64,000 bases of DNA from Vicugna vicugna (lineage: Eukaryota), in NCBI GenBank assembly GCA_013265495.1, contig MU057377.1, forward strand, positions 526,939 to 590,938. Reading direction: 5' to 3'. The position numbers and the translations under genes were made by a program. How positions within the stretch are numbered: the stretch's first letter is position 1; every line of letters begins with the position of its first letter. The notes beneath the pieces were generated by a model that was not told the origin of the DNA, searched no databases, and saw only the letters and a program-made list of their open reading frames with translations. Below, one piece after another: positions 380 through 35,518 of this stretch.

Positions 380-1030
380 ACCGCAGTGACTGCTGCGTTT
401 ACTGTGGAAGTGCTGTTACTCTCTTCCCTTCAACCGACAGGTTCACAAACCAGCAGCGAGGTTCAAGTCTAAGCCCGGGTCTCAGGGGCACCGAGACCTG
501 CCGCCATTCTCGCCTGCTGCGCAGAGAGCGACGCGCGGCGTCGGCACGTTTAAATAAGGCGCCGTCGTCTGATTGGCTAGGCGAATGCCTGCTGATTGGT
601 CCCCCGCGGATGTGGGCGGGCCCTGACGCGCCCATTGGCCGAGGCGGGAAGTTTAAACGGAGCGCAGTGCCTCCGCCGTCCGCTCCTGAACTGGAGTTTG
701 CGATTCTGTGGGGCCGCCGCTTCCCCGGGGTCCCGGCCTCCCGACAAGAAAGGGGGCAAGTGCGCTCCAGGTCTCCGCGGCTCCCCCGAGGGGACGCGGT
801 CGGCGTTCCTGTAGGTGCCGCTCGAAGCAGCCTGGCAGGGCCCGAGGCCGCCATGGCGACCTGGCGTCGGGGGCGCGGCTGCTGGGAGCGGAGCCCGCCC
901 GAGCGGAGGCCGCCGGCGGGGCTGCGGGGCCGCCGGGCCGAGGAGGAGGCGGCGTCCCCACCGGTCCTGTCCCTCAGCCACTTCCGCAGGTCGCCCTTCC
1001 TCTGCTTCGGGGACGCTGCCTGTGGTCCAT
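380..1030 (+). promoter_or_regulatory. CpG island; ASPM-type cell-cycle promoter (orphan copy)
   Basis: Very CpG-dense. ATTGG (inverted CCAAT/NF-Y) at 572-576, 595-599 and 634-638; GC box GGGCGGG 614-620; CDE GGCGG 643-647, a 4-nt spacer, then CHR-type TTTAAA 652-657. Directly followed by ASPM exon-1-like coding sequence. Confidence 0.85.
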
Positions 1031-1032
1031 AA
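853..1032 (+). pseudogene. ASPM: Truncated duplicate of ASPM exon 1 (59-aa ORF; ASPM similarity ends near 1015)
   Basis: GCCGCCATGG Kozak at 853 encodes [54 protein letters not shown], matching the ASPM N-terminus (human [55 protein letters not shown], from memory), then unrelated AACGP and TAA. No exon-1 donor or exon 2 follows. Opposite strand to the intact ASPM in this window. Confidence 0.9.
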
Positions 1033-1699
1033 ACAGCTGTGTATGGTGGTTTATGGTTTCTGCTGTAAAACAAAACTTTAACTAGGTTTTGCTTTCCCTC
1101 TGCTTCAGGTTTGTGTGCTGATTCCACTCAACGTACCAAACCACTAAGTCAGTACGTACAAAAGTGATGTTTACTTTTTACAGATTCCTTTAAACTCTGT
1201 TGCCTTGTTTAATCACAACAAACTCACGGGGTCATTGTCCACATTTGCAGAGAAGGCAACACTGTCAAAGGGTCTGTGTCCGATGGGTCAGGGCTAGGCA
1301 AGGCAGCAGGCAGGTTCACGTCCTGAGTCTTCTGTGTGTCTCTTTTCTCATCTGTAACCTGGAACTCGTGCCAATGGCAGCAGTGCAGGGTGCTCAAATG
1401 AGAGAGCTTCAGGCAGAGGTCTTGACTCTGTGTCACGGATAAATGTTCTTCTCCCAATTTTTAATAGGAAATATGCTTAGGGGATATAAACATTTATGCA
1501 TGGTTTTAGTCCTGGCAGTTAACAACTGGGATCCCATCCAGGTCTTGTGGTTTGAAATGCCATGCACTTTCCCTTATACTGTTATAGGCACGTGGCGTGA
1601 TTCTTTCCTAAAGACGTCTGTCTGGAGGATGAGGGGAAAATTAGAAGAAGAAGAAGATGCTTCATCAAACAGCCCCTAAGGGTCTAGGGTTCTCTGAGG

Positions 1700-1890
1700 A
1701 GACAATGCTTGTCAAACTTAAGAGTGCATCAGAACCACCTGGAGGGCTGGCTAACCTGCTTTTGAGGCTCCACCCCCAGACTTTCTCAGGCCTTAGGCAT
1801 AGACTAGGGCTACAGTTTGCATTTCTAAGAAGTCCCAGGTGATGCCTGAGCTACTGGGTCCAGGGACCACCTTTGGAAAATCACTGTAGT
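1700..1890. mobile_element. MER5-type hAT-Charlie DNA transposon relic
   Basis: Motifs caaactt..gtgcatcagaaccacctggaggg, ttgcatttctaagaagtcccaggtgatgc, gggaccacctttggaaaatcactg typical of MER5A/B. Boundaries approximate. Confidence 0.6.
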
Positions 1891-3890
1891 GGAAAAGAAA
1901 TATTAGAATATCCCTTGAGTGAAACACCTCCCCCACCCTTGGTGAATGAGCATGTCACAGTGACAAACAGCATTTGTCTGAGATGAGGGCAACCACTTGC
2001 ATCAGACTTGTCTGGACTGCTTGTTAATTAAATCAGGGAAATTTCTACTCACCACTGCAGAATTACTAACGTGAATTTCTGGGGCTAAGTACAGAAAACT
2101 GCATGTCACACAGGTTTTATGTACAAAGATAACAGCTCAAGAACCACAGAGCTTTACTAGGTAAAGTGTTATATTTGCCACAGAGAGAGAGAAATTCACT
2201 ATTAGTATAAAAATGAATCTACAGGATTCATGAATCTAGGCCTAAAAAGGAATGAACGTCAGGAGACCTATGTTTTGTGGAGCAGGGTTATTGGGTAAAC
2301 TATCCGAGGAAAAATTTTAAGTGAAATTTGGGGTTTCTTTTAATCTTCTAAACATTTTTTTAATTGGATAGTATTGGTGTGTTAGAATCTCCATATGATG
2401 GTTGTAGTGTATGGGGTTGGTTGGTTTGTTTTTGAACAGAATAACTTGAGTCTTTTTGAGGACATTCAGTTAAAATCGCCACCCACCCTACTGAATCGGG
2501 TTGAGCTCCGTGGTGTTTGCTCCCTGACTGCAGCTGAAACCAGCCATTCGAGGGCCCCGCTGCAGCATCCCTCCTGGGGAGGGCTCAGGGCAGGGTCTGG
2601 GGTCTTTGCTTCTCACAAACCCCTCGAGTGAGCTCTGCAGCCCGTGCTGGGAACAACTCAGGTAGATGCTGTGTATCACAGGCTCCTTGGTGCCAGTTGT
2701 GGAAATAGAAGCTCCTGCTACAGACGAGTACGGGCTGTAACGTGAATTTCCCTTCTTAAGAAAATAAGTCTCCTGTCTTCTGTCTGCAATGAGTTTGATG
2801 CTGTTTTGATGTGACTGAAAGACTTGGCTGAAGTTGCCCTGGCTCTTCCCAGGCTCCTTCGCAGCCAGGTTTCTGGAAGTTGTGTCATTGCATGTATGGC
2901 CACAAGGTGGCGGGCCAGCTCCATCTGACAACAAGCAGCTTCATTTGACTGGCTACCCCTGTCACTTTCTGATGTGTCACTAGTAAAAGTGTGTCACCTT
3001 TCTGTAAACCATGACCACAGAATCTTAGGACTAGATGGAAATGTGAGAGAGCATCTTGTTTATTGATTGTCATCCTGAGGTTCATTCTTTAAAAACGCTC
3101 TAGAAATTTTTTGAGTCAAGTGTATGTGTCGTTTGGCATGGCTGCCTAAAATCTCACAAACTTAAATGTGATCATGTACGTATGTATAAGAGTAGAATTA
3201 TACCTTATTTAAGTTAACTTATTTCATGTAAGTGATTTTCCTTTTTTGCTACTGTTTTCTCTCCATGAAATTTTATTTACTGCCTCTATTTGACTAGCAG
3301 TGACCTCAGTTGTTTTTCACATGCATTTCCAGAGAACAGCTTAATTTCCTGAACTGACTGTTGTCATACAATCCTTTGTGAGTTGGCCTAGAGGTAAGCA
3401 CCCCATTCAGATTTTGAAAATAGATACCTTTTTTTGTTATATATTTTTAAAAGACTATTTAATAAAATATGGTTTCACTATAAAGGCATTTGGGTAGCTT
3501 GATCTTTCAGTATGAAATTTAAGATCCTTTAACAAATGCTTATTGGGTTAATAGACCATGTTGTTGTATGTTATTGCCATTTTTTTATGTAGCAATTTTC
3601 CTGTCAGTTTCTTAGATAAATATAATTTGGTACTGGATATAATAACAAGTAGAGTAAGCTCTTTTCTGAATATTTACGAATGACGATTCTAGGCTGTTTT
3701 AAATATATTTTCTAATTTAAACCTGTATAAAACCCAGTCAGGTGTGTGTCATTATTTCCACTTCACAGGCAGAACAGGGGCTTAGATGTTAAGTGACTTG
3801 CTGAATGCCAGTGACTGGTCAGGATTTGAATTACACCGGTCTGATGCCATTGCAACCATTTTGATGGAACCCTGCTCATTAAAACATCAT

Positions 3891-5504: not shown

Positions 5505-5568
5505 ATGGGATCAAAAGACTTGGCTGTTATTATCCTATTAATCATCTCAGGAGAACTCTATGCAGAAG
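5505..5568 (+). CDS. F13B: F13B exon 1 (signal peptide)
   Basis: ATG 5505; MGSKDLAVIILLIISGELYAE; donor G|gtaaaa. Confidence 0.95.
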
Positions 5569-8500
5569 GTAAAACGAAGTTTTTAATATTCTTTATTCCC
5601 TAAAAATTATCAAGAGAAATTCTAACATTCATTTCTCTTGAGCATTTAATATAGTCTTTCGTTTACATATACCAATTTTATTAAGAACATATTTCTTATA
5701 AACATAATTTGTTGTAATATTTAGACAGGATTTTTTTCTTTGGGGAATATTACTAAACTATTTGCAGAGTAATATAACTTTGAAAACCAAAACAAGACAA
5801 AAAGAAAAATGAAACACCTTTTGCATGTCTAGTTTTGAGGGCATAGGAAACCAGGATCCACATACTTTAAAGAATTTTCAGGCTAAGAGTGCCAACACTT
5901 GGAAGTTGTATGTTAACCTTAATTCTAATTTCAGACTAGAATCCATTCCTAACAGTGCAAAGCTTGTACAATTTTAATTCTTGTTCTTAAAGTGAGTTAA
6001 TGTGGTAAATTTGAAAAAGAAATAACCGTAAATCATCAACAAGATTTTTGACTCTTGACACCTTGATTTTTATCCTAATTTATTCTTTGGTTGAAGACAT
6101 TAAGTAGTGAATAGTAGGAGAACCATAGGGTTGATTGTATCAACAAAGACACTTCTAAGAGTGGGAACGGGCTTTGTCAATACTCGTGTGGGAAAACGGG
6201 TAAATCAGGACTGTCCAGACAAGCGATACCTGTGGCCTCCCGTGCTGTGGAAGGCTTCACGGGTGGACTGCCTAGTGTGTGAGATGACTGTGTGAGTGAG
6301 GCCAGCTGGTGGTTACTTAGGAACAGTTAGTGGTGTTCTTGGTCTTCATGGATAAGAAACCAGGCAGGTCAGTGGGTGTCAGCAAAAGGCTCACCCCAAA
6401 TAGGAAACCACAGCAATAAGGCTCTTTTAAAATACTTTAGGGAATCTGTTGAAATAAAATACCTTACAAATTATAATCGTCTTTTAATTGAATAATTTAC
6501 TATAAATTTTCTACCAAAAAGGCCCTGAAATTGAAATTATGAAACTGAAATGAATAGCATTCATCTTAACTGACATATTTACTTCTACGATAAGAGAACT
6601 TTTGCATGAACAGTTTCTCTTGATTTTATTTTTCTGTTTAAATAGGGAAAAAGCAGCTAATACAACTGTCTATTATCTATACCATGAAAACATTGCAATA
6701 TTCTGGCTGATTTTCTAATTATTATGTGGATATGATATTAATGTTATATTCTTTACATTATATGTTATATTATTATACACATTAATATTATATTAAGAAT
6801 GTATATAATATAAGGAATGTAATATATAATGTAACGAATGTACTCTTCTTTCACACAAACAAAACGTGTCAGCTTCCTGAAGACAGGGACCACCATCTCT
6901 TATGCCCATGCTTTCCCCACCCTCATCGGGAAACTTAGGGGCCAGACTGAGTTAATTGTACTTCTCATTTCATACAGTCATCACTGGCCTATGAACGGTG
7001 TCACTTTTGCTTTTTTGATACATTTTCCCTCTTTATTCCAAACCCTGAATTCCATTTCTCGGAGGACCCATTTGGAGCCACTATAACGTGTTTGATCTAT
7101 CCTTAAATGTGCAAATATCTTTGTAAACTATGTCTGTGTTTTATATATTCTCATGAACAGAAGCTTGCCGTAGATTTTACCCCCTTACTGTTTCCATTTA
7201 CTTTTATTATATAAACATGTTTCCCTGCTGCTGAATCTAGTTTGTTGCTCTCGGTGTTATGTCGTGTTGTAGTGTTTCATGTATTTGCTTACCCACTCTC
7301 CTAATGGTGGCCACAGAGTTCCCTCGAATTTCCTCCTAACTACGAGCAACTCAGAAATGAATGCTGTCCTGTCATCACCTTATTTCACTGTGACACTTTT
7401 TCTGGCCAGTATCTACTCCTTTGTGGGACAATGGCTCAATTCTTTTTCTTGATTTCCTGATTTATATCAGATTAGCATTTTTCTCTGCCTTCTGCTTCTA
7501 AATAGTTGATTTGTGGGAGCTTTGCAGATTATACATTTTAACTTCCTGTCAGTTTTAGACATTGCAGTTTTTTTCTTCCTAACTGTGATGTGTGTGTTTT
7601 GTGAACAATGATTTTCATGGAAAGAAATCCTTAATTTTAATTTAATCAGATTCAACAATTTTGCCTTACAGTTTCTGTTCCCTGCCTCCCCCCATGCACG
7701 TCTGAATCAGACAGTGTGAATGGTGCCTTTGTAATTGTGCACATGGAGACCTTGGTGTCATAAACTTGGAATTTTCAAAGTTTATATTCTAGTGTGCCAA
7801 TTCGCCTACAACCATTCTGCAACTTCCCACATTTAATGGGGCTGTTTGCAGTAAGTAGCATGTTTCCATGCTTAGAGCTTCTACTTATTTCTTCTTTATC
7901 TCACCAGCACCTTCCTGTGTCTAGTTAAGGATATTCACTATGCAAATTTGAAATCCTTGATCCTGTTTTATTGCTTGTGCTCCATTGGGCATTGATTGTC
8001 CATTTGGCTGACTTTCTTTTGTTGTGGTTCAGCTCCTCCTGTTTCTCATTATGTTTTTCTTATAAATTCACCTTCCCCAAGACATATCTGCCACTTGGAC
8101 AGGTAACGAGCCTTCCTGGGGCAGGACGTGCCGCTGGACAGAGAGTCTTTGAAGCCACCACCTAGGATTGGCCCTTGTTTGCTCCCCTACCCCTTCTGTG
8201 TTCACCAGAGCACTGCTAGTTCTGAAGGGTCTTGGTTGTAAACCGTGGTGGTCTGGGTATGGAAAATGCCGAGAATCCTCAGGGTCGGGGGTGCCCCTGC
8301 ACATGCTCATGATCTGCTCTGCCCCTCCATCAGATTCTGGAGGGTTCTGTTATCCATAACTCCTTGCCCACGTCCCCCAGCCCTGCGCTGGCACTGCTGT
8401 TATTTTTTGTCTCCTGGGTAGCAGGAAGGTTGACTGTGACCCCCAAGGCATTGCAGGCAGGGGAGTCCCCGCTGCCCAGCCCTTCTTCCCCACACCTCTG

Positions 8501-11500
8501 TGCCCTCCCAGCCCAGCTCCGAGGAACTGCTCCAGGGTTTGTTTCTTTTAAGTGTTTTTATGATTTTTAAGGTCTCCATCGTTAAGGATGGATTTTTTTT
8601 TAAATAAATGTCTTATTTGGAGTATAATGTACACAGAAAAGTGCAAAAATATTGCAAAAATCGTAAGATCCCCTTCTGTAAATGGTTATGAAATCTTCCC
8701 GCACCCAGATCAATATATAGAACATTAATTAGCCAGAACCCAGGAGCCTCTTAAATTCTCCTCTAAGGATAATGCCCAAGTCGCCATCCTGACTTCTCTG
8801 ATCACGGACGACTTGGCCGCAGGGTGATGTGCCCACGGTTAGGTGGAAGGAAGCTTCCAAAGGGATGCTCTCAGGACTCAGGGCTGACGGGTCTTCCAGA
8901 ACAGGGGCGGTGCTGCCAAAGCCCAGCTCACCAGAGAGCAGGGGGAAGCCTGCCCCTCACCCCCTGAGCCGGAACACATTCCCAGAAAGAGGGCAGGAGC
9001 CTCAGGAGAGCTGCGGACTGGCCTGGGCCGACGCCCTCCCTGTGGCATCCTCCTCTTCATCCTGGCCAAGGGGCAGAGGACGGGAGGAGGGCCGTCTGCA
9101 GGGGACGCAGGCTCCGCAGACCACGTGCCCACAGCGTGGGCGGGGATGAGCGCCAAGGGTGGGGGTCAGGGCCTCCCCTCTGCCCACCTCCTGAGGCTGG
9201 GTGCGGGGTGCTGGCCCGAGGAACAGGCGACCTGCCCCCGCCTGGCCTGACTGCCGCCTCCAGAATCTACAGTCCTCGGCCTTTGGCCTCGATTCTGGTC
9301 CTTGCCTCTCAGGTCACCGAGGGCGCGTGGAGCCCAGGCCGCTGCCAGCCCAGCCCCTCCTGAGAAGCCAACCAAAGGCAAATAAAGTTATTGCATGTTT
9401 GAGTGGAGAGAAGAAAAAAAGAAAAGATCCAGCAGAGTTTCGCAGCGGGTCTGCCGTGCCGCGCAGGAGGGGCTCCGTTAGGTCAGCGTCCTCTGGGAAA
9501 GTCCTGCCCACAGCCCTGGGCACCGGGTCTTCCTCCCAGAGCCCACCCCCCACCCCGCCCACCGGGTCCTGCGTCTGCGTGGAGACGGGGGTAGGTGCAC
9601 AGCCTGCCCAACAGCGTCAGGCCCTACGGTCCACCGCCGACCAGCGGCAGCCTCGGCTCCATCACCCGCGGGCTGACTCCGGCTCCCGCCCGGCTCCGCT
9701 CGGCCGGCACAGCTCTCGGACCGCCCAGGGCATCACCAGAGGCCGAGTGGTACCAGCGGCTGGCTGGTAGTGCTGCCCACATCCTCGCTGGAGGAGGCCT
9801 TGCTGATTCCTCCTCCCATGAACGGGTTTCATGTTGCTCTGTGGTGTGGCCGGAGCCTTGAGGCATCAGAAGGGACTTCTCTGTGGTTCCCCTGGGCCCT
9901 GTCTGCTGCTGCCTGGGCACCCACATCCGGGCCCCGGCGGTGCTTCTGAGCAGCTGTGGTCAGAAGCACTGTCATCTCTGCTGGCCTAGGAGCCAGTCCA
10001 TCTCCTGCCCCATCCTGGGGCTCCTCCTTCAAACCACAGCCAAGTTCAGCCCAGCCGGAGCCACCCCACACCCAGCGTCCCCAGCTGGGTGCCTGGAGAT
10101 GGGGGTTAGGGGGGGTGAAACAGGTGAAGGGGGTCAAAAGGTACAAACTTCCGCTTATAAGTAAGTCCTGGATCTGTAATGCATAGCATGTTGACGATAG
10201 TTAATGATACTGTATCACATCGTTGAAAGTTGCTAAGAGAGTAGATTGTAAAAGTTCTCAGAATAAGAAAACAGAACTTGTAACTATATGTAGTGATGAA
10301 TGTCAACTAGACTTAATGGTGGTGATCGTTTCCAGTATATACAAATATTGAATCATTATGTCATATGCCTGAAACTAGTATAAAGGTCTATGTGAATTAG
10401 ATCTCAGTTTACAAATCACACATTTACTCATATGTGACTGGCTTCACTCAGTCGTGTGTCTGTGAGATCTGCCCTCAGCATCCACCATCCCTGTTGCTGT
10501 GCGGTACCTGCCATGTGCACAGTCTGAGGTGCGTTTATTTTCTGCTGTCGCTTGGCTGCTATGTCTGGCTGCACAGATCTGGTTTGTGCATATTCTGCTT
10601 TGACAAAAACTGCCCAACTGTTTTCTCGTTGAGATGTTGCACCAGTTCACACTGACTTGCAGTGGTCTGAGAGTTCCCTCTTCTCTGTGTGTTCACCAGC
10701 CACTGAGGGAGTCTCTGTTTTCCGTGTCAGTCATTTCAGTGGATGTGCGGACTACCTCACAGTCATTTAAACTTGCATCTCCCAGGTGACTGGTAAGGCT
10801 GAGCCTTCCTTACTAGATTTCTGACCACTTCAATGTGAAGTTCTCCCTCGAGTCTTTTAATTATTTTTTAATTGGTTGTCCGTCTTTTTCTTAAAAAGCA
10901 AAACAAAACAAAAGCCATTCATTTCAAAATCTGCAACTTCAAATATCTTAAGGAGAACCTCATCTATTCTAGAATTCTGTCCAATACTGGTGGCCACTAG
11001 TCACATGTGGCTCTTGAAATGCGGCTAGTCCAAATTGGGATGTGCTGTGTCAATGCACACTGGAGTTCAGACTTAGAAAGAAAAATACTTTTAATATATT
11101 GGGTCAAATAAAACCTGTTAGAAAAATTAACTTCAGCTGTTCCTTTGATTCATGTGGCTTCTAGAAATTTTAAAATTACACACGTGGCTTGTTATATTTC
11201 TATTAGAAAGTGCTGTTTGACAAAATCAGGAAAAGCTTCTCTGAGGAAGCAGCCTGCCCAGACTTATCTGACAGTTTAGTGCTCGGGTTGGTGGCAGATT
11301 AATTCTGATGGAAAAGGATTGTCACAAGCATGCTTTAAATATTTAGGTAATAAAAATAAGTACTGAAGTACATGCAAACACATGGAATTTTCAAATGTAT
11401 TGTGGCTTGATCACAAACTGTATGGTTTTAAATGTAGTTTTCAGTCTTCAGCTTGACATTTACTCATTTCAGAGAAACCCTGTGGTTTTCCGAGTGTGGA

Positions 11501-14500
11501 AAATGGACGGATTGCCCAATATTACTATACTTTTGAAAGATACTACTTTCCAATGAGCATAAATCAGCATTTGACCTTCTCCTGCTTGGCCGGTCACACA
11601 ACTAAAACGGGGAGACAAGAGGCTCGCATCGCGTGCACAGCAGCCGGCTGGTACCCAGAACCACGGTGCTTCAGTAAGTCGGTGAAGGGCTCCGCTAGTG
11701 TGCGAATGTGCAAACTGATCAGCTTGTAAAAACTGGGTCCAGTGAAATAAGGCAAGTGTTTAAACCTTTGGTAGATAAGAACAAAATCATCAGCCCATAG
11801 TCTTCTTTACAAAATGAAAGCATATCCTGAAATTCTGTAAATCAAGTCTTTCATTAAAATGTGATCTTTTCCATCTGTTTTTAATAATACCCTGTGAAAA
11901 GGATAAGGATAATTATTGAAATTGTTGTTATCACGTTGCAAGGAACAGCACTGAGTTACTTCAAGGAATGCAAACTTATGCAGATAATTGTGCAAAAGCC
12001 AGAAAAATACTTGACATTGGCCTAAGGATGAACAAATTATTATTCTAATGTTGAATCATTCAAAGCCTCACCTCTCCTTGGTATACCAACTGTCTTCTCT
12101 TCAAATACCCATTGAAAAATGTTTTTTTCTGAAATTTGAGGTCACACTTGTGAAAAGGAAGCCGATTAGTGCATCTCAATGTTTCACGTCAGTCTGTGCT
12201 GGAGTCAGACTGTCAGCTGGCTCTCACTGGGTCCGGTGGCCTCTCTCGATTGAAGGCTTCCCGAAGCCCTGTTTTGCAGAGGAAGGGGCTTTACTTGAGT
12301 CTGTTCCATTTAGAAGAGAAAGTGGATATGGTCAGTATGGCGGCTAAAATGTCCAGTAAATGTGTCCATGGGATAATTATCCATTCTATGACCTGAGGAC
12401 AGACTATGAATGTGAGCATTGCACTTTTAGTGTGAGCATGGACCATAGATTAATGCTAGAAAATAAATCTCACTTATATCTAGAGCATTAGGGTAAATTA
12501 AACACCCTAGGTTTATTGACTCTTTTAGATTGGAGGTGAGAGCAGTGAAGTAGGGGCCAAAGCAGGATGAGGCGGGTTTAGCACTGCAGTGTCGTGGTCA
12601 AGACACACCCTCTGCGAATGGACTGCTGTCTGTGAATCCCCCTCCACTACTGGGAAGTGGCTGAAACATTCTGAACCAGAGTTTCTCAGCTATAAAATGG
12701 GAATCATGCTGCTTCAATGAGATAATCCTTGTAAAGTGCTTGCCACACAGCAAGTATGACATCGATTTAAACAAATGTTAACCTTGGGCAAGTCTCTTTG
12801 CCTTTCTGGATTGATTTGTTATGGGGTCCATGAATGAGGCTTAAAAAATGATTGAACTCCATACAACACTAAGGCAAATGTGATATCCAACACATCACTG
12901 TTCCAAGTCTTTACTAAAATACTCCGGACTCATATGCTTTGAGTGACATGTCTGTGATTCAGTCACAGTCTACGTGGCCTGACTCTGTCTGAAGTCCTGC
13001 CACGCAGGTAGCCCATCAGACGTTGAAAAAAATGAATGAACACAGTTTTCACACTAAGTTGTCTGCAGAATGATTTAAGGATCCACACAGTAGGTGTATG
13101 TTCTTTAGTTACATGATGTTAAAAATTATCAAACACAGTGGACTCAAAAGTACCAAGAAAGTAAGTCCAAAAGAAATTCCTGTTATTTGCCATTAATGAC
13201 AATTAGTTAGAGGAAGAGCTCTGGATATATTTTCTAAAATAGTTGAGGCAGGGGTAGGAATGACTCTGAGAGCTGAAGTTAGTACATACCAAGAATTTCG
13301 GTGTCAAATTAAATCCACATTTAAAGAAATTTGATGCACAACATGCAGGGTATTTCCAAAATTAAACTAAATCAAGAACTTGTGGAGTGAACATTTTTTC
13401 CTCTCTCTCCTTAAAATTCCAAGAATAATGTTAAACATTTGAGAAACTTCATCAATTTAGAAAAGAAATTTTTTTTTCTCATAGAAAAATGCCCTAAGCC
13501 TGACTTAAGAAATGGCTACATCTTTGATACAAAATTATCTTACAACATTCAAGAGAACATGCGCTACGGTTGTTCGTCAGGATATAAAACCACTGCAGGG
13601 CAGGATGAAGAAGTGGTTCAATGCCTCCCTGATGGATGGTCCTCTCAGCCAGCCTGTAGGAAGGAGCATGGTACGTGCTTAAGAGTCATCTCCTAAATCT
13701 GTAGATAAGGGCCTGTGGGTTTAGTGCTTTCTTGTATTGGTAGGCATTTTTATTTAATATAATTGTTAATATAATTGTTCTGGATGCAGGAAGTTGTTAT
13801 ATTATTTCTCTCAAATGCTAAGTGTTTCCTTCATCCAGGAATTCCCAACGGCTACCACACCTACTCCAGGAGTTCCTACTTTCTACTGGTAAAAAAGGAG
13901 TTGGAGTGGAATAAAAGGAAAGAGTCTTAATGAACATATTTTTTGCAACATACATAATTATTATTTCCTTCATTAGAGAAGAATTCAAAACAATGCACAT
14001 TATTTTATACTATAAACCAATATCATATAAACTTAAAAATAATCCAATAATTTGTATATATATACACACATATATACAAACATATATATGTATACTTTGT
14101 TAACATGTTGTTAGTTATTTAAATTATACAAATCCACAGATGGGACATCATCAAGAAATACTGCAAAAGCCTTCTGTTGAATTATGGCTTTTGGTCAAAC
14201 ACACTGGACTAAAATTGTAAGAACAGAAGACGGCTGGGGTTAGGACACAAGGTGCATGAGGAAAGGGAAGCGAGAAGCAGAGGGAAACTTTGACTGTTTT
14301 TCAATGTTGCCAAGAGTTGCTTCTGTCATATATTCTTAAGATTCAGGGAGAACACTTTTTGAGATTTCTTTTTAATTACTCTAGGTTTCGTGATAAAGTT
14401 CATAAAACAAATGACTTTAATTTCTTTTTAGAAATGTGCTTGGCCCCTGAATTACATCATGGAAATTATTCCACAACACAGAAAACATTCAGAGTGAAGG

Positions 14501-23500: not shown

Positions 23501-24739
23501 TCCGAGTGCAGTGTGACCGAGGGCAGTTAAAGTACCCGAGGTGCATTCAGAGAGAAAGGTAAGAGAGGCTCGTGCCTGCAGCTGGTTTGTTTTGTTTGTT
23601 TGGTCAGACTTATTCATGAGATTTATTATGTTACACATTTCAGAAATATCACATTCTGCAGTACTCTTCCTTTATGGTTATTAAAAAGGAAAAAGTTATG
23701 TTTTGTTTAACTTTTTAAACCAAGTGAACTCCTAGAAGTATTAATTCAACAAGTTTTCTGAGTTGTCTAAAGTCAAGGCCCTGCTTGCTATTTGACATTT
23801 GTGACACTTTGGCAGTCGGGTAAATAAATCCAGTTATATGAGCAATATTTAATGTGGCAAAACTAACCTATATGTGCTGAGATAAGAGAGAAGCACATTT
23901 TCTCCCACTTCCCAGTCGAGGTTCAGGAATACATAGCAACATAGAAACGTTCTCCTGAAGGAAGAGCATGTTAGTAGCAATGATTAAAACTGTGGTACTT
24001 TGTTTCAGAAACACATTTCTATACAAGATTTTGGACTTTCCTTCTGGAGGGTTTCTCATGTACCAATTTAAAAAGTAATTTTCTACTACTTGATCAATCG
24101 AACATAATCCCTTTCCTTTTTAAGAAAAATATTAAAAGAATGTAGTGAAATAATGTCATTCATTTCATGGGATCATATTTTGATCCTTTTGAAGATACAT
24201 TATAAAATGGAAATTATACTCTGTGTTCAACTAAATATTTTTTAAATGATTTATGGCAAACTGCATATGGTACTTTTCTAGTGGCTATAAACAATGAGCT
24301 TTATGAACTACATAAGGAGGACAGCTTTTTAGAGACTTTGAACACTAGAAAAACTTTATAAGACAAACACAGGTGGAAACTTTTATTTTTAATTTTTAAT
24401 TGTGGTAAAAAGTGTGGTAGAAAAATTTATGTGTTATCTACATGTTTTAGTATATCCTGTCTTTCTCAATTCTTAGAGAAAAAGAAGTAAGTAACTTAGA
24501 CAAAAATTAAAATGTTATTGTAGTTAATTATAATGAGTTTTAAAAAGAAATTGGTGGTATAATTTACTAAGGATGGTTACTTGCTTTTGTCAGTACTTCC
24601 TTAAAACAAGGACTAATTATCTGAAATGTTGAAGGGCTAAGATTGTAATAAATACTTGATCAAAAATGATGTTTATTTCAACTCCTCCCTTTCTTTCCTA
24701 TCAAGGATGTTGTCTTATCAAGAACCCTTAAAGACATAA
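5505..24739 (+). CDS. F13B: Coagulation factor XIII B chain, complete 12-exon gene (signal peptide + 10 sushi/CCP domains)
   Basis: Exons 5505-5568, 11473-11673, 13485-13670, 14432-14608, 14974-15150, 17733-17912, 18001-18186, 19063-19245, 20623-20823, 21531-21713, 23345-23558, 24706-24739. All introns GT-AG; total 1986 nt = 661 aa + stop, open frame; N-term MGSKDLAVIILLIISGELYAEEKPCG, C-term LSYQEPLKT*. Confidence 0.97.
10100..10412 (+). mobile_element. L1M-type LINE-1 3' UTR fragment
   Basis: gggggtcaaaaggtacaaacttcc..ttataag, ttgaaagttgctaagagagtaga, cctgaaacta motifs of L1MA/MB 3' ends. Confidence 0.7.
10975..11217. mobile_element. MER3-like hAT-Charlie DNA transposon relic
   Basis: ctgtccaata...gccactagtcacatgtggct...gtggcttgttatatttctattag..agtgctg pattern. 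Confidence 0.6.
11473..11673 (+). CDS. F13B: F13B exon 2 (sushi 1)
   Basis: tttcag|AG AAA CCC TGT GGT; KPCGFPSVENGRIAQYYYTF...WYPEPRCF; donor gtaagt; 201 nt. Confidence 0.95.
13485..13670 (+). CDS. F13B: F13B exon 3 (sushi 2)
   Basis: KCPKPDLRNGYIF...GWSSQPACRKEH; 186 nt; ag/gt flanks. Confidence 0.95.
14432..14608 (+). CDS. F13B: F13B exon 4 (sushi 3)
   Basis: MCLAPELHHGNYSTTQKTFRVKDKVRYEC...PPRCA; 177 nt. Confidence 0.95.
14974..15150 (+). CDS. F13B: F13B exon 5 (sushi 4)
   Basis: LKCSSLRLIENGYFHPVKQTYEEGDVVQFFC...WYPESPVCE; 177 nt; absent from the ORF track, read directly. Confidence 0.95.
16366..16881 (+). mobile_element. MaLR (MLT1-type) solo LTR
   Basis: Starts TG; cctaacccctggaacc, gggactttgcagacgtg, gacttt..ctcccagagctgtaagagaatagatttgtg, tttgtcacggcagcc...aaca. 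Confidence 0.75.
17733..17912 (+). CDS. F13B: F13B exon 6 (sushi 5)
   Basis: RRSRCAPPPLPANSSVQAHAATYRHG...CENGKWTEPPRCV; 180 nt; donor gtcagc. Confidence 0.92.
18001..18186 (+). CDS. F13B: F13B exon 7 (sushi 6)
   Basis: ACGEPPFVENAAAQPSSGRFHGGDKVTYAC...WTAPPACA; 186 nt; preceded by an 88-nt intron. Confidence 0.92.
19063..19245 (+). CDS. F13B: F13B exon 8 (sushi 7)
   Basis: NTENCNAPPVVINGAV...GSSVEYRCNEYYLLRG...WSPPPVCL; 183 nt. Confidence 0.95.
19651..19768 (-). mobile_element. tRNA-derived SINE (Vic-1-like)
   Basis: Reverse-strand A/B boxes (ggggattgaacccagg; gagctgtaccctcccc). Confidence 0.75.
20623..20823 (+). CDS. F13B: F13B exon 9 (sushi 8)
   Basis: PCTVNVDDMHRSNLEMKWQYEGKILHGDLIDFVCKQGY...KYPLCVRK; 201 nt. 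Confidence 0.95.
21531..21713 (+). CDS. F13B: F13B exon 10 (sushi 9)
   Basis: TCASPPLIKNGVI...YENGSSVEYRCF...WTAPPLCL; 183 nt. Confidence 0.95.
   Translation, partial: NLKERVRLPHLLRMESSRGQRRAPMKTAPPWSTGVSNTISCRGPGRPTAQRARGRRRRCA
23060..23185 (-). mobile_element. tRNA-derived SINE (Vic-1-like)
   Basis: aattaggtttatttgtttg...ggggatcgaacccaggacctc...ctgagctttaccctccc. Confidence 0.78.
23345..23558 (+). CDS. F13B: F13B exon 11 (sushi 10)
   Basis: PCTLSLITMENNNLLLKWNFDDRPYIFHGEYVEFLC...QCDRGQLKYPRCI; 214 nt. Confidence 0.95.
24706..24739 (+). CDS. F13B: F13B exon 12 coding part
   Basis: tcaag|G ATG TTG TCT TAT CAA GAA CCC TTA AAG ACA TAA. Confidence 0.93.
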
Positions 24740-24899: not shown

Positions 24900-24905
24900 A
24901 ATAAA
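24900..24905 (+). terminator. F13B polyadenylation signal
   Basis: AATAAA about 160 nt after the stop, followed by GT/T-rich sequence. Confidence 0.7.
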
Positions 24906-27698: not shown

Positions 27699-29199
27699 CG
27701 ACAAATACGTATTTCTCATACATTTTTGGTCATCTGAATGACCAAATGTGTATTTTTCCTGTGACTAACACAAGCCCACTGTAGGACGCACACGAGTGAG
27801 CCCCAGCGTGAGCGTGGATGTTGCGCTGCCCTTGCCCCCTCATGCAGCAAGTACCCCGTCTGGGCTGGGAAGTTGGTAGTGAGGGAGGCTGCGGGTGTGG
27901 TGGGAGGCAGGGACTACATGGAAACTCTCCGTACTTTCTGCTGTTTTGCTGTGAGCTGCTTTAGAACATAAAGTTTATCTTTTAAGTGAAAGTAATCTGT
28001 ACGGTACATAGTATGATCAGCTTGTCCATTTTCCGTGCTGGACCGCCACCTAAGAACCCCTGTGGGGCCCAGCGGGTGGAGCGGTCTCTGTCTGGAGCTC
28101 GCCAGATAAAGGTGTTCTTGATCTGTTTTCTGCTGTGGATTCCTGGCAGTTTTGTGAAGCTCCTGGTCCCTTCCCAGAGCAATGTTTTCAAATATAATGA
28201 AACCACAATTACCATATTTAAGTACAGTTGCTATCAAAAGTGTTCAGTGTGTGGTATTTTAATACACCAAACCCTTGCTTGTCCCCCACCCCTAGATTTA
28301 GTGTTAGAAAATCCCCGTCTGATCTGGAGACGTGCCTTTCCAGCGAGAGGACGTTTCCAGCCTCCCTGGAGGCTGGTGGCCGCAGGACTACCCAGCGGTG
28401 AGCTGGTCACCTAAGGGGGCATCAGATTAGGAAAAAGTAAATTTTAACAACAACCAAATGTTTGTAGATTATGTTTTGAAATGTATAATTAATGTATATA
28501 TATAGTTGCATTTTAATAGAAAGCTTTTAGAAAGATTATGATTTTCTGTGGTTCTTCCACATTGTGGGCATAAGAGAAAAATATAAACATAGATTTAAAA
28601 TGGTGGAATGTTCATAAATTTGGAGTGTTTGTAACCACTGCTAGCTGAATGAGGAAAGGAGGAAAAAGGGCCATTTACCACATAGAACAGCTTAGCATGG
28701 CCTTGCTCCGTGTGCAGTCACTACTGTGGACACTACGTGTGTTAGAGACAGACAGTCAAGACTCTCCAGCTGAACTGCTGGGTCCACGTTTATCGTCCCC
28801 ACCTAACAGGCTGTGTGACCTTGGAAAGTGTAACTAGTTTTCTAGTGTATGAACTAGGAGTAACAACTTGACGAAGATGTTGTAAGGTTTTATACAGCTT
28901 ATACTTAATAAGGTGCTAAAAATAGTACTTGGCTAATGTTAACAAAAATTAGCTATTATGGAAAAGAATCTGAAAAAGAATATATATATATATTAAATAT
29001 AGATATATCTGAATCACTTTGTTGTATACCTGAAACATTGTAAATCAACTATACTTCAATAAAAAGACTAAACATTTTTAAATTAGCTATTTAGATTATT
29101 GCATAATCTTATTTTATCCTAAAATATTCATCAGGTTGATGTTTTATTAGTCCATAAAAAAGATTATGACTATTAATTAATATATTTTTCTACTTTCAG

Positions 29200-29394
29200 A
29201 TCCATATATAATATCTGAAGAAAACATGAATAAAAATCACATACAGTTAAAGCTGAAAATGACAAAAAATATTATGCAAAAACAGAGGAAATCATCGACT
29301 TTACGCATAATTGGGGTGTAGCGCAGATACGTTAATGCCACCATTTCGAGCAGTGTGTTGGGAAGGGGTGGGGGGCTGCCCCAGGTGTGTGTAA
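29200..29394 (+). pseudogene. Decayed complement factor H-related (CFHR3/CFHR4-type) terminal exon
   Basis: Acceptor tttcag at 29199, then DPYIISEENMNKNHIQLK / ENDKKYYAKTEEIIDFTH / LGCSADTLMPPFRAVCWEGVGGCPRCV* across two frameshifts. Matches the last SCR of CFHR4 (..CIITEENMNKNNIQLK..KYYAKTGDTIEFMCKLGY..FQAVCREGIVEYPRCE, from memory). Cys1>Tyr, Cys2>His; AATAAA at 29506-29511. Confidence 0.85.
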
Positions 29395-29809: not shown

Positions 29810-30957
29810 GCCTAGAAGAAGAAGGACGATCCAGTCCCGAAGTTAGCAGAAGGAAGGGAAGAGCAAAGACCAGGCAGAAGTAAATGCAATCATCATAGGT
29901 TACAAAATTGAGACTTGCTTTTTTAAAAAGATAAAATCAGCAAATCTTTAGCTAGACTAAGAAAAAAGATTTAAATACATAAAATCAGAAATAGAAGTGG
30001 CAACAGATATAACAGAAATACAGCAGCGCATAAGAGATTACTGTAAACAATTACATACCAACAAATTGGATGACCTAAAAGAAATGCATAAACTCCTAGA
30101 AAAATATGACCTAGAATCGCAAATAAATAGAAAATCTGAACAGACCAATAACAAATCAGGGTTTGAATTAGTAATCAAAATCTTCCAACAAAAAAATGCC
30201 CAGAACCAGATGGTTTCCCTGGTGAACTCCACCAAACATTTAGAGAAGAATTAATGTCAACCCTTCTCGAACTCTTCTGAAATACTGAAGAGAAGGGAAG
30301 GCTTCGAAACTTATTTTGAGGCCAGCATCACTCTAATATGAAAGCCAAATAAACGATGCTACAACAAAGAAAACTTAAAACCTAATTCCACTGATAAACG
30401 TAGATGCAAAAATCCTCACAAAATACTAGCAAACCAAGTTCAAGAGCACACCAGGAGGACCACTCACACTGATCAGGTGGGTTTGTTCACAGGTCGCTAG
30501 TTTGGTTTGAATATGCATATCAATACGTGTGACACACCATAACAACAGAGTCAAGGGTAAATATCATATGATACTCTCACCAGATGCAAAAAAGCACTTA
30601 AGTTTCAACATTTTTTCATGATAAAAATTCTCAAAAAATTAAATATAGAAGGAATGCACCTCGACATAATAACAATAATAAAAAAAAGCCCACAGCTACC
30701 ACCACACTTAACGGCAAAAGGTTAGAAGCATTTCCTTTAAGATCAGGAACAAGACAAGGGTGCCCACTCTCACCACTTCTATTTGACGTAGTACCAGAAG
30801 TGCTTGCCAGAGCAGTTAGGCAAGAAAAAGAAATAAAAGTCGTCCAAATCAGAAAGGAAGAGGTTAACTTGTCTGTTTGCAGATGACAAAATCTTATATA
30901 GAGAAAATCTTAAAGATTCCACCAAATAACTGTTAGAACTAATACACCAATTCAGTG
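29810..30957 (+). mobile_element. Degenerate LINE-1 ORF2 (reverse-transcriptase region) fragment
   Basis: ATDITEIQ..IRDY.KQL..NKLDDLKEM; tttaagatcaggaacaagacaagggtgcccactctcaccact; ctgtttgcagatgac (FADD); many stops and frameshifts. Confidence 0.9.
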
Positions 30958-31039
30958 TCCTTAAATGTGCTGTGGAACTGCTAAAAGATTTTGCTGCGAG
31001 TGATGATACACTGTACCCTAAAAATACCAGTTTTCAACA

Positions 31040-31450
31040 CAGATGGACCTAGAGATCATCATTCTAAGGGAAGTCAGCCAGAAAGAGAAAAATTCCATAT
31101 GATATCACTCATATGTGGAATCTTAAAAAAGAAAAAGAAAATAAAGGTCAGCATGAACTCACCTACAAAACAGAAACAGACTCGCAGACATAGTAAACAA
31201 TCTTATGGTTACCAAGGAAAGGGGGTGGGAAAGGATAAATTTGGGAGTCTGAGATTTGCAACTGTTAGCCACTATATATAAAAATAGATTTTAAAAAGTT
31301 TCTTCTGTGTAACAGGGAACTATATTCAATGTCTTGTAATAACCTTTAATGGAAAAGAATATGAAAACGAATACATGTATGTATATACATGACTGGGACA
31401 TTGTGCTGCCCACCAGAAACTGACACATTGCAACCGACTGTACTTCATGA
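31040..31450 (+). mobile_element. LINE-1 3' end
   Basis: atggacctagagatcatcattctaag...catatgatatcactcatatgtggaatc...tgacacattg...tacttca. Confidence 0.8.
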
Positions 31451-32339: not shown

Positions 32340-32585
32340 TTATTTAATTATTTCACACTACCCTCTGTGAACTTTGATATTTACCAAAAGGATTTCGTTA
32401 CACTAGCTTTCTGGTAGTGCACTGGATTCAAAGTCATGCTTATAACTGTAAATGAAAGCAGGATTCCAATCAACACTACGACTGCTGGACCATTTATAAT
32501 TACACACAACTGCAATAATCTAGCCTGTTGCTCTTAATTCATGTCCTTCTAATATGGATTTCTACTGTTGGGGGACAAGGTAAGT
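32340..32585 (+). pseudogene. Orphan CFHR (CFHR1/2/5-type) promoter and exon 1 with ATG>CTG
   Basis: 32525-32579 reads (CTG)LLLIHVLLIWISTVGGQ G|gtaagt, matching CFHR5 MLLLFSVILISWVSTVGGE (from memory). 5'UTR-like aactgtaaatgaaagcaggattc; HNF4-like TGAACTTTG 32368-32376; FOXA-like TATTTAC 32378-32384. No downstream SCR exons found before ASPM. Confidence 0.82.
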
Positions 32586-33029
32586 TGAAAACATGAAAAC
32601 AGATCTGAATATTTAGTTCCTCTCTCAAATGGGTGTACATCCATTTTTCAATGTGGTGAGAACATTGTGAATGAAGGATCATCATTTTAATGTATTTGTA
32701 TGAAAATATTTCTAGGGAAAACAGAATGAAATTAATTTTCTCTGCTCTTTGAGTTATAAAGAATAAATAGCCACCAAACACATTTGGAGAAAAATTAAAT
32801 GATGAAAAATCTGCATATAATGAAACTGAAAGGGCAAAGTACCAGTGTAATTCTGCACAAATCCTGCAATGCCACTAACCGGGAAAAGCATCCCAAGAAA
32901 ATTCGAAGACCTTCAAAATGTTTGGATATCTCAGATTTGTTAATTTAAGATTTAAATATTCTTAAAACCAGGAATTTTCTACTCTAATTTAATTACCATT
33001 TAACAAAGAAAGTTTCTTATTTATTCATT

Positions 33030-33829: not shown

Positions 33830-34440
33830 ATTCATCTAATTGCAAATGAAGCCTCTAGCAAGGTCTGCCGGAACTACTTGTTCCGGGGACTCCCGCGTCT
33901 CTCCCCTGCTCAGCTCCGGCTGCCTATTTTCACTTCCATTTGGTGGAGACAGAAACTTGCATTTGAGATGAGCTGATGAGCTCCAGCACCAGGCTGCCCA
34001 CTGGACACGCACCAGGCATCCTCCTTCTGTGGCCAGTTGATTCGGACATGCGTCGGCCACTGAGGACTGTTGTGAGCAGCGCTTGGGTGAGGGGTGTGCT
34101 TTTGGATCAGTTGGTTCTGACGTGCGTGTGCCCCTGAGGGCCCTCTGCATTTAACAGAGTGCCTGATTATAGACTGATGAGAGCCCAGACTAGGCAGTCT
34201 GACGGCGTGCTTTGTTCTCTGTGCTCCGTGTTGATCTGTGGCTGTCACTCTCCCTGGGGAAATGGGAAATTCTGGTTCCATCCGTGAAACCATCTTGGAT
34301 GAATTCTGACTGGAAAGCTTTTAGCTATGAGCCTATCACTAAGAAAAAGATACTTTATTGTAACACTGTGTGGCCACAACATTCTTTAGACTCCAGAGAA
34401 AACTGGTTAAGGTGAAACTCTCGAAAATTCCACACTTTAT
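33830..34440 (+). mobile_element. Class I ERV (ERV1) leader/gag-matrix relic
   Basis: ATG GGA AAT (MGN) at 34262 and, in another frame, WKAFSYEPITKKKILYCNTVWPQHSLDSRENW, resembling the gammaretroviral MA motif (KKKLIFFCNTAWPQY.L...E.W). Frameshifted. Confidence 0.65.
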
Positions 34441-35278
34441 TGGAAGAAAAAAAAGGCAAAAAAGTTACCCCCAAATTTCCAGTTAATTTCACTATATTAA
34501 TATGTCAATAAGGTCTTTACATCTATTCTAACCAAATCTCAGACAGCTTCCCACTAATTGGGTTTAACCCTTCTTGCAACAAATTAATTAAGTAAGTAGT
34601 TAACTGGTCTCTCCATTTCTAACTACTACTGATATCTTTTAAACAGTTAAAAACGGTCTTGGCCAGCATATCGAGACGACTCTGGGACCCTATCAGATTT
34701 CACACAGCCCTGGCATCAGGCTTCTGTGGCCTTGGGCCCACATAATTCAGTACAGGTGACAGGGACCCAGAGCTACAGAAAATAACAAGTTGTGTTTTAA
34801 CACTGAGTTGTTTCCAGGCCCGTGCTGTGTTTCTAGACAAGTTTCCATTATAAGCAACAGCTTGCTCTTCCCAGGTCAGTGGTCACCCCACTCAGTTCAA
34901 AGTTGAGGATTTTCAGTATATGAAGGGATAGGTTGAATTCATCTAACTTACCCAAAGGGCTCACCTGCCTGTCTAGGTGGTCCCGTCAGTCAGGAGACAC
35001 AAGGATGTTTTCCAAGATATTGTGGGTTATTTTATCCTCTTCTCACTTCTAAGTGAGTTGGCAGAGTCTTACATTTCCAAGATTTATTTTAGATAAATGC
35101 CTCAATATACCTACAAAAAAGGAATAAAAAGCTAATCTTTTGCCTTTAGGAATGTGACTATATTCAAACTAATACAATATTTCAAGATGACAGACATGAA
35201 TAACTGTTGAGATCATTTTATAACATTAGTTTGTTACATGCGTAAAGCTATTAAATAAAAGAAACCAAGGGTATAAAG

Positions 35279-35284
35279 TTTATT
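35279..35284 (-). terminator. ASPM polyadenylation signal
   Basis: TTTATT on + (AATAAA on -) about 130 nt past the ASPM stop; a second one at 35083-35088. Confidence 0.65.
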
Positions 35285-35415
35285 TGTTATGTATCTTTTT
35301 TAAGTTTAATACAAAGTCAGATTTTAAAAGCTGTACAAAGAGAGCAAAAGACACTTTAGGTACGTGTCACCAGCTTTAAGCTTCTTTCACTGCCCACTCT
35401 GAAACGTCTGCGTCA

Positions 35416-35518
35416 CTAATAGGGGATGCCAAGCGTGTCCATCACCATCTGAATAGCTTTCAGAGGATTCATGCTTTCTTCCACCTTATCTCTTCTCAAA
35501 ACCCAGTCTGGCTTCAGT
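35416..35518 (-). CDS. ASPM: ASPM exon 28 (last coding exon)
   Basis: [33 protein letters not shown]; 103 nt. Confidence 0.95.

What the first reader, a model, noticed from the sequence alone, without database searches (positions are those of the whole stretch)
853..35518. Rearranged locus: F13B convergent with ASPM, consistent with an inverted duplication and reciprocal gene loss
Seen order: ASPM 5' relic(+), F13B(+), CFHR last-exon relic(+), CFHR first-exon relic(+), ASPM(-). Recalled human order: CFHR genes(+), F13B(-), ASPM(-), with ASPM upstream of F13B on the same strand. Inference: the left part is an inverted copy of ASPM>F13B that lost the ASPM body. The right part is the original orientation (CFHR> ... 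<ASPM) that lost the last CFHR body and F13B. One event plus deletions explains all four relic and gene orientations. Predicted junctions: near 1015, within about 25000-29000, and within about 32900-35000.
Basis: partly seen in the sequence, partly recalled or inferred. Interest (0 to 1): 0.8.

Follow-up and report, generated by a model that had tools for sequence, protein, structure and literature searches.

The report
Rearranged F13B–ASPM locus, camelid-like genome
In this camelid-like DNA the clotting-factor gene F13B points towards the brain-size gene ASPM instead of following it, and broken gene fragments mark the rearrangement; it looks like a real but ordinary kind of lineage-specific reshuffle that I could not verify outside this one sequence.

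Summary
They are:
- a copy of the ASPM CpG-island promoter plus the first 54 codons of exon 1 (853-1014, +);
- an intact 12-exon, 10-sushi F13B (5505-24739, +);
- a frameshifted CFH-family terminal-SCR exon (29199-29391, +);
- a CFH-family signal-peptide exon with CTG in place of ATG, plus half an SCR1 exon (32525-32579 and 32771-32887, +);
- ASPM exons 17-28 (59242-35416, -).

F13B and ASPM are therefore tail-to-tail, with about 10 kb between their poly(A) signals.

The ASPM fragment carries a residue (RGRR) seen elsewhere only in dromedary ASPM, whose gene model has a complete exon 1. So the fragment is probably a camelid-age partial duplicate.

An assembly artefact is therefore unlikely but not excluded.

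Unexpectedly, ASPM exon 21 carries an in-frame TAA.

Verdict: observation confirmed, interpretation partly supported, a new member of a known kind, modest interest.

Nothing on F13B or this locus was found in earlier notes of this scan.

The parts
101..852 (+). CpG-island, promoter-like sequence directly upstream of the ASPM exon-1 fragment. Presumed to be a copy of the ASPM promoter and 5'UTR.
   Evidence: In 100-bp windows from 101 to 1000, GC is 56-80% and CpG o/e is 0.51-1.46. Motifs: ATTGG at 572, 595 and 634; GGCGGGAA at 643; TTTAAA at 652. Reading these as CCAAT/E2F/CHR cell-cycle promoter elements is from recall. No reference ASPM promoter was available for comparison.
853..1014 (+). 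ASPM exon-1 fragment: ATG plus 54 codons, truncated in mid-exon.
   Evidence: It is 52 of 54 residues identical to dromedary ASPM P0001. There are no stops or frameshifts within the 54 codons.
1015..1032 (+). Junction J1. ASPM homology ends here; the frame reads AACGP and then TAA.
   Evidence: None of 65 ASPM N-termini share this continuation. There is a composition step at 1001-1100.
5505..24739 (+). F13B coding region, 12 exons: 5505-5568, 11473-11673, 13485-13670, 14432-14608, 14974-15150, 17733-17912, 18001-18186, 19063-19245, 20623-20823, 21531-21713, 23345-23558, 24706-24739. AATAAA at 24900-24905.
   Evidence: The ORF is intact at 661 aa, with 10 sushi domains, and is 96% identical to dromedary F13B.
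29199..29391 (+). Pseudo-exon of a CFH/CFHR-type terminal (last) SCR, split over three frames. The first Cys is replaced by Tyr.
   Evidence: three collinear HSPs to the C-terminus of gecko P0066, E 3e-4; the best matches all fall on the last SCR of CFH-family representatives (P0141, P0210, P0173, P0204, P0265, P0280). These are named CFH-like, CFHR4 or CFHR5 by their sources.
29961..31281 (+). LINE fragment lying between the two CFH-family relics (context only, not part of the rearrangement itself).
   Evidence: RVT_1 hit, E 1.8e-5, at 30602-30883. ORFs.
32525..32579 (+). Pseudo-exon 1 (signal peptide) of a CFHR-type gene. CTG stands where the ATG should be, and a GTAAGT donor follows.
   Evidence: It aligns to residues 1-19 of bonobo CFHR4 (10 of 19, E 9e-5). 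It also aligns to an internal MLLLIHV... signal peptide in a tenrec CFHR4-like model (12 of 19, E 3e-6).
32771..32887 (+). First half of an SCR1 exon of a CFH-family gene. It has stop codons before and after and is cut off at about 32.89 kb.
   Evidence: It matches residues about 24-62 (the first SCR) of many CFH-like representatives, E 3e-4 to 0.06.
35416..35518 (-). ASPM last coding exon (…[10 protein letters not shown], stop at 35418-35416). AATAAA signals at 35284-35279 and 35088-35083.
39285..59242 (-). ASPM exons 17-27. Exon 17 is 59242-59048; exon 18 is 54715-50450 (1422 open codons). The rest are tblastn matches: 48167-47988, 46620-46522, 45431-45207, 44008-43847, 43066-42860, 42399-42202, 42073-41918, 40507-40322, 39455-39285.
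45282..45284 (-). In-frame TAA in ASPM exon 21 (…RRKYV*LKKS…).
   Evidence: The whale ASPM has E at this position in the alignment.

Best explanation
The window shows a real rearrangement at the boundary between the CFH-related gene cluster, F13B and ASPM. It arose in the camelid lineage and involved duplication of at least the ASPM 5' end.

Inferred ancestral state: ASPM was followed by F13B on the same strand, with a CFH-related gene converging on F13B. This is the order recalled for human and mouse.

Shown here:
- F13B is intact but lies tail-to-tail with ASPM.
- 4.5 kb upstream of F13B, on the same strand, sits a copy of the ASPM CpG-island promoter and first 54 codons, cut off in mid-exon.
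- Between the two 3' ends lie decayed exons of CFH-family genes: a last exon, then a first exon plus half a second exon. Both point towards ASPM.

An inverted copy of the ASPM-F13B segment was made. The ASPM body was then lost from one copy, and the CFH-related gene body plus F13B from the other. That leaves one working F13B and one ASPM body.

Not shown: the duplication's extent, its age, and independent support for the junctions.
For: - All elements are mapped with strands.
- J1 is sharp. ASPM homology ends after codon 54, and none of 65 ASPM N-termini share the continuation. GC and CpG content step down at the same place.
- The fragment is camelid-type. RGRR is found only in dromedary P0001 among 65 N-termini. 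HFRR is found in P0001 plus 3 others.
- P0001 has a complete exon 1 joined to downstream exons. A second, full exon 1 therefore exists in at least one camelid.
- F13B is intact, with GT-AG at all 11 introns. The rearranged copy is thus the working gene.
- The CFH-family pieces are decayed: two frameshifts, a lost Cys, a lost ATG and stop codons. This is not what a recent assembler error would produce.
- The window is gapless.
- 14 of 24 listed sequencing runs hold 79-88% of the sampled 31-mers of window 1-10000. They carry three organism codes and come from five studies. This shows the sequence is widespread but says nothing about the junction itself.
- GC skew is positive from 10 to 30 kb and negative from 30 to 46 kb. 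The turn lies between the two relics.
Against:
- No outgroup or second camelid genome could be compared, so both the 'ancestral order' and the age rest on recall and on one shared residue.
- The second copy of ASPM exon 1 is not in the window.
- No F13B remnant lies on the - strand between 24 and 35.6 kb. Only chance-level hits with E 0.1-1 were found.
- No significant ASPM remnant lies between 1015 and 5504. The best + strand hit has E 0.35-0.65. A formerly complete second copy is therefore unsupported.
- The ASPM body that was kept has an in-frame TAA in exon 21.
- The exact 59-aa and 140-aa ORFs that cross J1 are not in the 15-billion-protein collection.
Confidence: 0.55

Rival explanations
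1. A one-step, replication-based complex rearrangement (template switching), or an inversion with staggered breaks. F13B was moved and flipped, and only a short piece (the ASPM promoter plus 162 bp of exon 1) was copied at a breakpoint. No large duplicate of ASPM-F13B ever existed.
For: No remains of a second F13B or of an ASPM body were found. The ASPM fragment is undamaged over 54 codons, while the CFH-family pieces are heavily decayed. This fits a small copied piece. Breakpoint duplications of this kind are known from other inversions (recalled, not checked here).
Against: It needs several switches in one event. The fragment and F13B keep exactly the ancestral tandem relation, which a deletion inside a full copy explains more simply. 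A weak ASPM-like, exon-shaped stretch lies at 3334-3399 on the + strand, at chance level; if real, it would count against this rival.
Confidence: 0.25
2. Assembly artefact. The true order is the standard tandem ASPM then F13B, and a piece was misplaced or flipped, or two loci were falsely joined inside a repeat.
For: J1 lies at the edge of a 73-80% GC island, where short-read assemblies often break. No read-level check could be made. A paper notes that New World camel assemblies remain fragmented (passage of PMC12127551).
Against: There are no N in 64 kb. Three separate odd adjacencies would be needed. The CFH-family relics on the + strand between the two 3' ends fit neither contig of a simple mis-orientation. 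The long open frames (F13B 661 codons, ASPM exon 18 1422 codons) argue for good base quality.
Confidence: 0.12
3. The tail-to-tail order is not camelid-specific. It is older and shared with other artiodactyls or wider.
For: I could not inspect any outgroup. The CFH-family relics look old.
Against: The ASPM fragment carries camelid-type residues and is undamaged. This points to a copy made after camelids split from pigs, ruminants and whales, unless gene conversion keeps it alike. Human and mouse have the tandem order (recalled).
Confidence: 0.12
4. No duplication at all. The ASPM body was cut away from its promoter and first 54 codons and re-inserted, inverted, beyond F13B, so ASPM is decapitated in this genome.
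For: Only one copy of each block is visible in the window. ASPM exon 21 has an in-frame TAA.
Against: ASPM exons 17-28 are otherwise open and well conserved; for example 52 of 52 residues of one exon are identical to whale, and exon 18 has 1422 open codons. Dromedary has a complete exon 1 joined to later exons. Loss of ASPM would be expected to be harmful (established knowledge of human primary microcephaly MCPH5).
Confidence: 0.05

Closest known systems
Human and mouse arrangement of CFHR genes, F13B, ASPM and ZBTB41 on human 1q31.3
   Same: Same neighbours: CFH-family sequence, F13B and ASPM within one 64-kb stretch. The gene order is as listed in PMC11942503 (passages). The fragment-F13B pair keeps the tandem relation.
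   Different: Here F13B and ASPM are tail-to-tail. F13B lies on the far side of the CFH-family fragments. An extra ASPM 5' end sits upstream of F13B. The human and mouse strands are recalled, not tested.
Segmental-duplication-driven rearrangements of the CFH/CFHR cluster (deletions, hybrid genes; recalled from the human literature)
   Same: The same chromosomal neighbourhood, with birth and death of CFH-family exons. A last exon followed by a first exon is what the boundary of two tandem CFHR genes looks like.
   Different: This rearrangement involves F13B and ASPM, outside the repeat-rich core. No long repeats were found in the window that could have mediated it: the longest self-match is 394 bp at 65% identity.
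Inversions flanked by inverted duplications of breakpoint sequence, and duplication-inversion complex rearrangements (staggered-break and template-switch models; recalled)
   Same: A copied piece (the ASPM 5' end), in inverted orientation relative to its presumed source, at the edge of a re-oriented segment.
   Different: The second copy and the outer breakpoints are outside the window, so the defining layout could not be seen.

Membership tests
F13B orthologue | Signal peptide plus ten sushi domains, one per exon, with an intact reading frame | tested here: met
   12 exons, GT-AG at all introns, 661 codons, 40 Cys. 10 sushi HMM hits with E 1.8e-12 to 6e-21.
F13B orthologue | Best database matches are F13B | tested here: met
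   74 proteins with E<=1e-3 among 95 candidates. Almost all that carry a name are named coagulation factor XIII B chain. 634 residues are identical to dromedary F13B.
ASPM orthologue (3' part) | Collinear exons 17-28, including the large IQ-repeat exon 18 | tested here: met
ASPM orthologue (3' part) | Uninterrupted reading frame | tested here: not met
   TAA at 45284-45282 in exon 21. All other exons are open.
ASPM orthologue | Own promoter and exons 1-16 | not testable with these tools
   These lie beyond window position 64000, and no genome is held for this window.
CFH/CFHR-family pseudo-exons | Similarity to the terminal SCR and to the signal peptide plus SCR1 of CFH-family proteins, at the matching ends of those proteins | tested here: met
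   The scores are weak (E 7e-5 to 0.01 per query), but the positions are consistent across many representatives.
CFH/CFHR-family pseudo-exons | Pfam Sushi domain in an open frame | tested here: not met
   None of 133 ORFs of 40 aa or more between 24.0 and 35.6 kb hit Sushi. PDB searches found nothing. This is consistent with decayed fragments.
Inverted duplication with reciprocal loss | Two copies of the same segment in opposite orientation | tested here: inconclusive
   Only the ASPM 5' fragment is visible. A full exon 1 exists in dromedary (P0001), but its place relative to this window is unknown.
Inverted duplication with reciprocal loss | Remains of the lost genes inside each copy | tested here: not met
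   No F13B remains on the - strand between 24 and 35.6 kb. Only a chance-level ASPM-like stretch lies at 3334-3399.
Assembly artefact | Gaps at junctions, or junctions not spanned by reads | tested here: inconclusive
   There are no N. The read test was not possible.

The most novel reading that the evidence does not exclude
There is no second ASPM exon 1. The rearrangement cut the ASPM body off from its promoter and first 54 codons, and the TAA in exon 21 is the first visible decay. This camelid lineage would then carry a disrupted ASPM, a gene whose loss causes microcephaly in humans. A milder variant of this reading: the stranded, still CpG-rich ASPM promoter now fires towards F13B.
Probability: 0.05. 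Interest if true: 0.8.

Novelty: new member of a known kind. Interest (0 to 1): 0.3.

Why it matters
If real, this is a dated, breakpoint-resolved structural change next to the fast-evolving complement factor H cluster. It re-orients a clotting-factor gene without damaging it. It also leaves a stranded copy of a cell-cycle gene promoter 4.5 kb upstream of that gene.

It would be a useful marker for camelid phylogeny and a caution for annotation pipelines: a spurious 'ASPM-like' 5' exon, and pseudo-exons of CFH-related genes. It is also a small natural case for how duplicated segments resolve by complementary loss.

It does not open a long-standing question. Rearrangements of this kind near gene clusters are common. 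The TAA in ASPM exon 21 deserves a check of its own.

Tried and rejected
- **Whole genome of the window:** none is held.
- **Earlier notes of this scan:** nothing on this genome, this sequence or F13B. The five ASPM notes concern protist IQ proteins and are unrelated.
- **PDB sequence searches of the CFH-family relics:** none or chance hits only.
- **Third large protein search**, using the relic read through with X at the stops: 110 candidates, none scored.
- **Exact look-up of the two ORFs that cross J1:** not in the collection.
- **Metagenome scans:** an exact 30-base J1 pattern gave 0 matches. A scan with the ASPM fragment as protein gave one locus at 50% identity over 32 residues, judged spurious and not used.
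- **Laying reads:** There is therefore no read-level result of any kind, for or against.
- **Sequencing runs X15-X24:** these hold 0-12% of the words.
- **Per-exon identities from raw tblastn matches:** these were lowered by intron read-through and are superseded by the spliced comparison.
- **Splice reconstruction of ASPM exons 17-28:** it failed at exon 21, which is how the TAA was found.
- **Literature:**
  - F13B + ASPM + inversion: 0 papers.
  - At least 3 of F13B, ASPM, CFHR, synteny: 17 papers, 15 listed, none on this rearrangement by title or abstract.
  - F13B + camelid: 2 deer papers.
  - ASPM + alpaca: 5 unrelated papers.
  - At least 3 of CFH-related, alpaca, camel, gene cluster: 84 papers, 10 listed, none on this locus by title.
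- **Rfam:** only three tRNA-like SINE heads.
- **Tandem repeats:** three short arrays, none at a junction.

Full report
**What the window is**

The 64-kb window has no N. No whole genome is held for it. Its proteins match camels best but not exactly. The spliced F13B is identical to dromedary F13B at 634 residues of 661/658. ASPM exon 17 is 64 of 65 identical to a dromedary ASPM-like model. I therefore treat it as a camelid other than the Camelus records that were hit. The species was not determined.

**Checking the observation**

- *ASPM fragment.* On the + strand an ATG at 853 opens 54 codons that match ASPM N-termini. One search found 65 proteins with E<=1e-3 among 135 candidates; the best is dromedary P0001, E 6e-25. 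After ...FLCFGD the frame reads AACGP and stops. All 65 N-termini continue differently. GC falls from 80% to 45%, and CpG o/e from 0.81 to 0.40, across the same point. The 750 bp before the ATG are a CpG island with three ATTGG boxes, GGCGGGAA and TTTAAA. By recall this is the layout of a cell-cycle gene promoter.
- *F13B.* It follows on the + strand. There are 12 exons from 5505 to 24739, GT-AG at all 11 introns, a 661-codon open frame, 40 cysteines and 10 sushi domains. An AATAAA lies at 24900-24905.
- *ASPM body.* It lies on the - strand. AATAAA signals lie at 35284-35279 and 35088-35083. Exons 27 back to 17 reach 59242, and exon 18 (54715-50450) is open for 1422 codons.
- *Result.* The two genes are tail-to-tail, with about 10 kb between their poly(A) signals.

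**The fragments between the genes**

None of 133 ORFs of 40 aa or more between 24.0 and 35.6 kb hit the Pfam Sushi family. One hit reverse transcriptase, a LINE at 30602-30883.

Translated searches found broken pieces instead. At 29199-29391 (+) there are three collinear pieces in three frames. They match the C-terminal SCR of a gecko CFH-like protein (E 3e-4).

I then searched 1.84 billion representatives with that protein (3936 hits, best 150 kept) and laid the 150 on the interval. The best matches to 29199-29391 again fell on the last SCR of each protein (P0141, P0210, P0173, P0204, P0265, P0280). Their sources name these complement factor H-like, CFHR4 or CFHR5.

At 32525-32579 (+) a signal-peptide-like exon ends in a G|GTAAGT donor. 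It has CTG where the start codon should be. It aligns to residues 1-19 of bonobo CFHR4 (10 of 19, E 9e-5). It also aligns to an MLLLIHV... signal peptide inside a tenrec CFHR4-like model (12 of 19, E 3e-6).

In the same frame, 32771-32887 matches the first half of the first SCR of many CFH-like proteins (E 3e-4 to 0.06). It contains stop codons.

PDB sequence searches and one further large protein search with these relics found nothing. The individual scores are weak. The case rests on position: last SCR to last SCR, first SCR to first SCR, across many proteins.

**Is the ASPM fragment a duplicate, and how old is it?**

The fragment differs from dromedary ASPM at 2 of 54 residues. It shares RGRR with it, which no other of the 65 N-termini has. 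HFRR is shared with dromedary, hippopotamus (two entries) and a mouse lemur.

The dromedary model continues through the rest of exon 1 into later exons. A complete exon 1 therefore exists in at least one camelid.

The simplest reading is that the fragment is a partial copy made from a camelid-type ASPM, after camelids split from pigs, ruminants and whales. Alternatively, gene conversion may keep it alike. This is inference from one or two residues.

The fragment is undamaged, whereas the CFH-family pieces have lost a start codon and a cysteine and gained stops and two frameshifts. Either the events differ in age, or the CFH-family genes were already dead, or the fragment is preserved.

**Mechanism**

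Name the ancestral blocks as follows:
1. ASPM promoter and start of exon 1
2. ASPM body
3. F13B
4. body of the neighbouring CFH-related gene
5. its first exons plus the last exon of the next gene

The window then reads 1, 3, -5, -2.

- The adjacency 1|3 is the ancestral tandem order with 2 removed.
- The adjacency -5|-2 is the ancestral order with 3 and 4 removed, seen from the other strand.

Two inversions cannot produce this layout. One inverted duplication followed by two deletions can. So can a single replication-based event that copies 1, skips to 3, switches strand to 5 and then to 2.

I looked for leftovers that would favour a once-complete second copy. No F13B remains lie on the - strand between 24 and 35.6 kb. 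Between 1015 and 5504 there is only one ASPM-like stretch, at 3334-3399 (+). It has exon-like borders, but its score is at chance level (E 0.35-0.65).

The route is therefore unresolved.

**Artefact and outgroups**

- *Reads.* Fourteen of 24 listed runs hold 79-88% of the sampled 31-mers of window 1-10000. They carry three organism codes and come from five studies. This shows the sequence is common in related animals but says nothing about the junctions.
- *Other independent sources.* An exact 30-base pattern across the first junction was absent from the metagenome contigs. The exact ORFs across it are absent from the protein collection. Neither is informative.
- *Outgroups.* No mammalian genome collection was available.
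- *Against an artefact.* There are no gaps. Three separate unusual adjacencies would be needed. The + strand CFH-family relics fit no simple mis-orientation. The very long open frames argue for good base quality.

I leave the artefact at about 0.12.

**Literature**

Five searches found nothing on this rearrangement. From PMC7768046 I read only two passages, which say that F13B, ASPM, ZBTB41 and CRB1 are conserved neighbours of CFH. From PMC11942503 I read passages that list the human genes in the order CFH, CFHR1, CFHR5, F13B, ASPM, CRB1. From PMC12127551 I read one passage noting that New World camel assemblies are too fragmented for structural comparison. Gene strands in human and mouse are from my recall.

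**Unexpected**

ASPM exon 21 carries an in-frame TAA at 45284-45282 (...RRKYV*LKKS...). The whale protein has E at that position in the alignment. Everything else in exons 17-28 is open and conserved. The likeliest explanations are a polymorphism, a base error or exon skipping; the matched stretch is 225 nt long, a multiple of three. It keeps alive, at about 0.05, the bold reading that ASPM is disrupted in this genome.

**Verdict**

This is a new member of a known kind, a lineage-specific rearrangement with gene-fragment relics beside a duplication-prone cluster. Interest 0.3.

Noticed in passing
window 45282-45284 (- strand), ASPM exon 21: In-frame TAA (…RRKYV*LKKS…) where whale ASPM has glutamate. 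All other ASPM exons in the window are open. It could be a polymorphism, a base error, exon skipping (the 225-nt matched stretch is a multiple of three) or early decay.
   Followed up: partly
window 17500-18500 (F13B exons 6-7), 52500-53500 (ASPM exon 18) and 8000-10200 (F13B intron 1): GC-rich patches of 1-2 kb, in two cases also CpG-rich, sit inside DNA of 35-45% GC. F13B exons 6 and 7 are 63% and 75% GC. Only 33-42 of 60-62 residues are identical to non-camelid F13B, against 44-58 of 59-67 in exons 2-5 and 8-10. This looks like GC-biased gene conversion hotspots inside coding exons.
   Followed up: partly
window 3334-3399 (+): An exon-shaped stretch (…TTTCCAG| … |GTAAGC) translates to EQLNFLN*LLSYNP--L*VGLE, against ASPM [22 protein letters not shown]. 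The score is at chance level (E 0.35-0.65 in 4.5 kb). If real, it would be an internal ASPM exon relic between the exon-1 fragment and F13B.
   Followed up: partly
window 500-1014 (+): The stranded ASPM-type promoter keeps a full CpG island, three ATTGG boxes, GGCGGGAA and TTTAAA. It points at F13B, 4.5 kb away. Whether it is transcribed is unknown.
   Followed up: no
window 3899-3969 (+), 23111-23182 (-), 44323-44394 (-): tRNA-like Rfam hits that coincide with 70-125-bp repeats found by self-BLAST. They are probably heads of tRNA-derived SINEs. None lies at a junction.
   Followed up: no
window 1-9 (+): The window opens with CAG|GTAAGC, a splice-donor-like site on the + strand about 850 bp upstream of the ASPM-type ATG. 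It may be chance, or the end of an exon lying left of the window.
   Followed up: no
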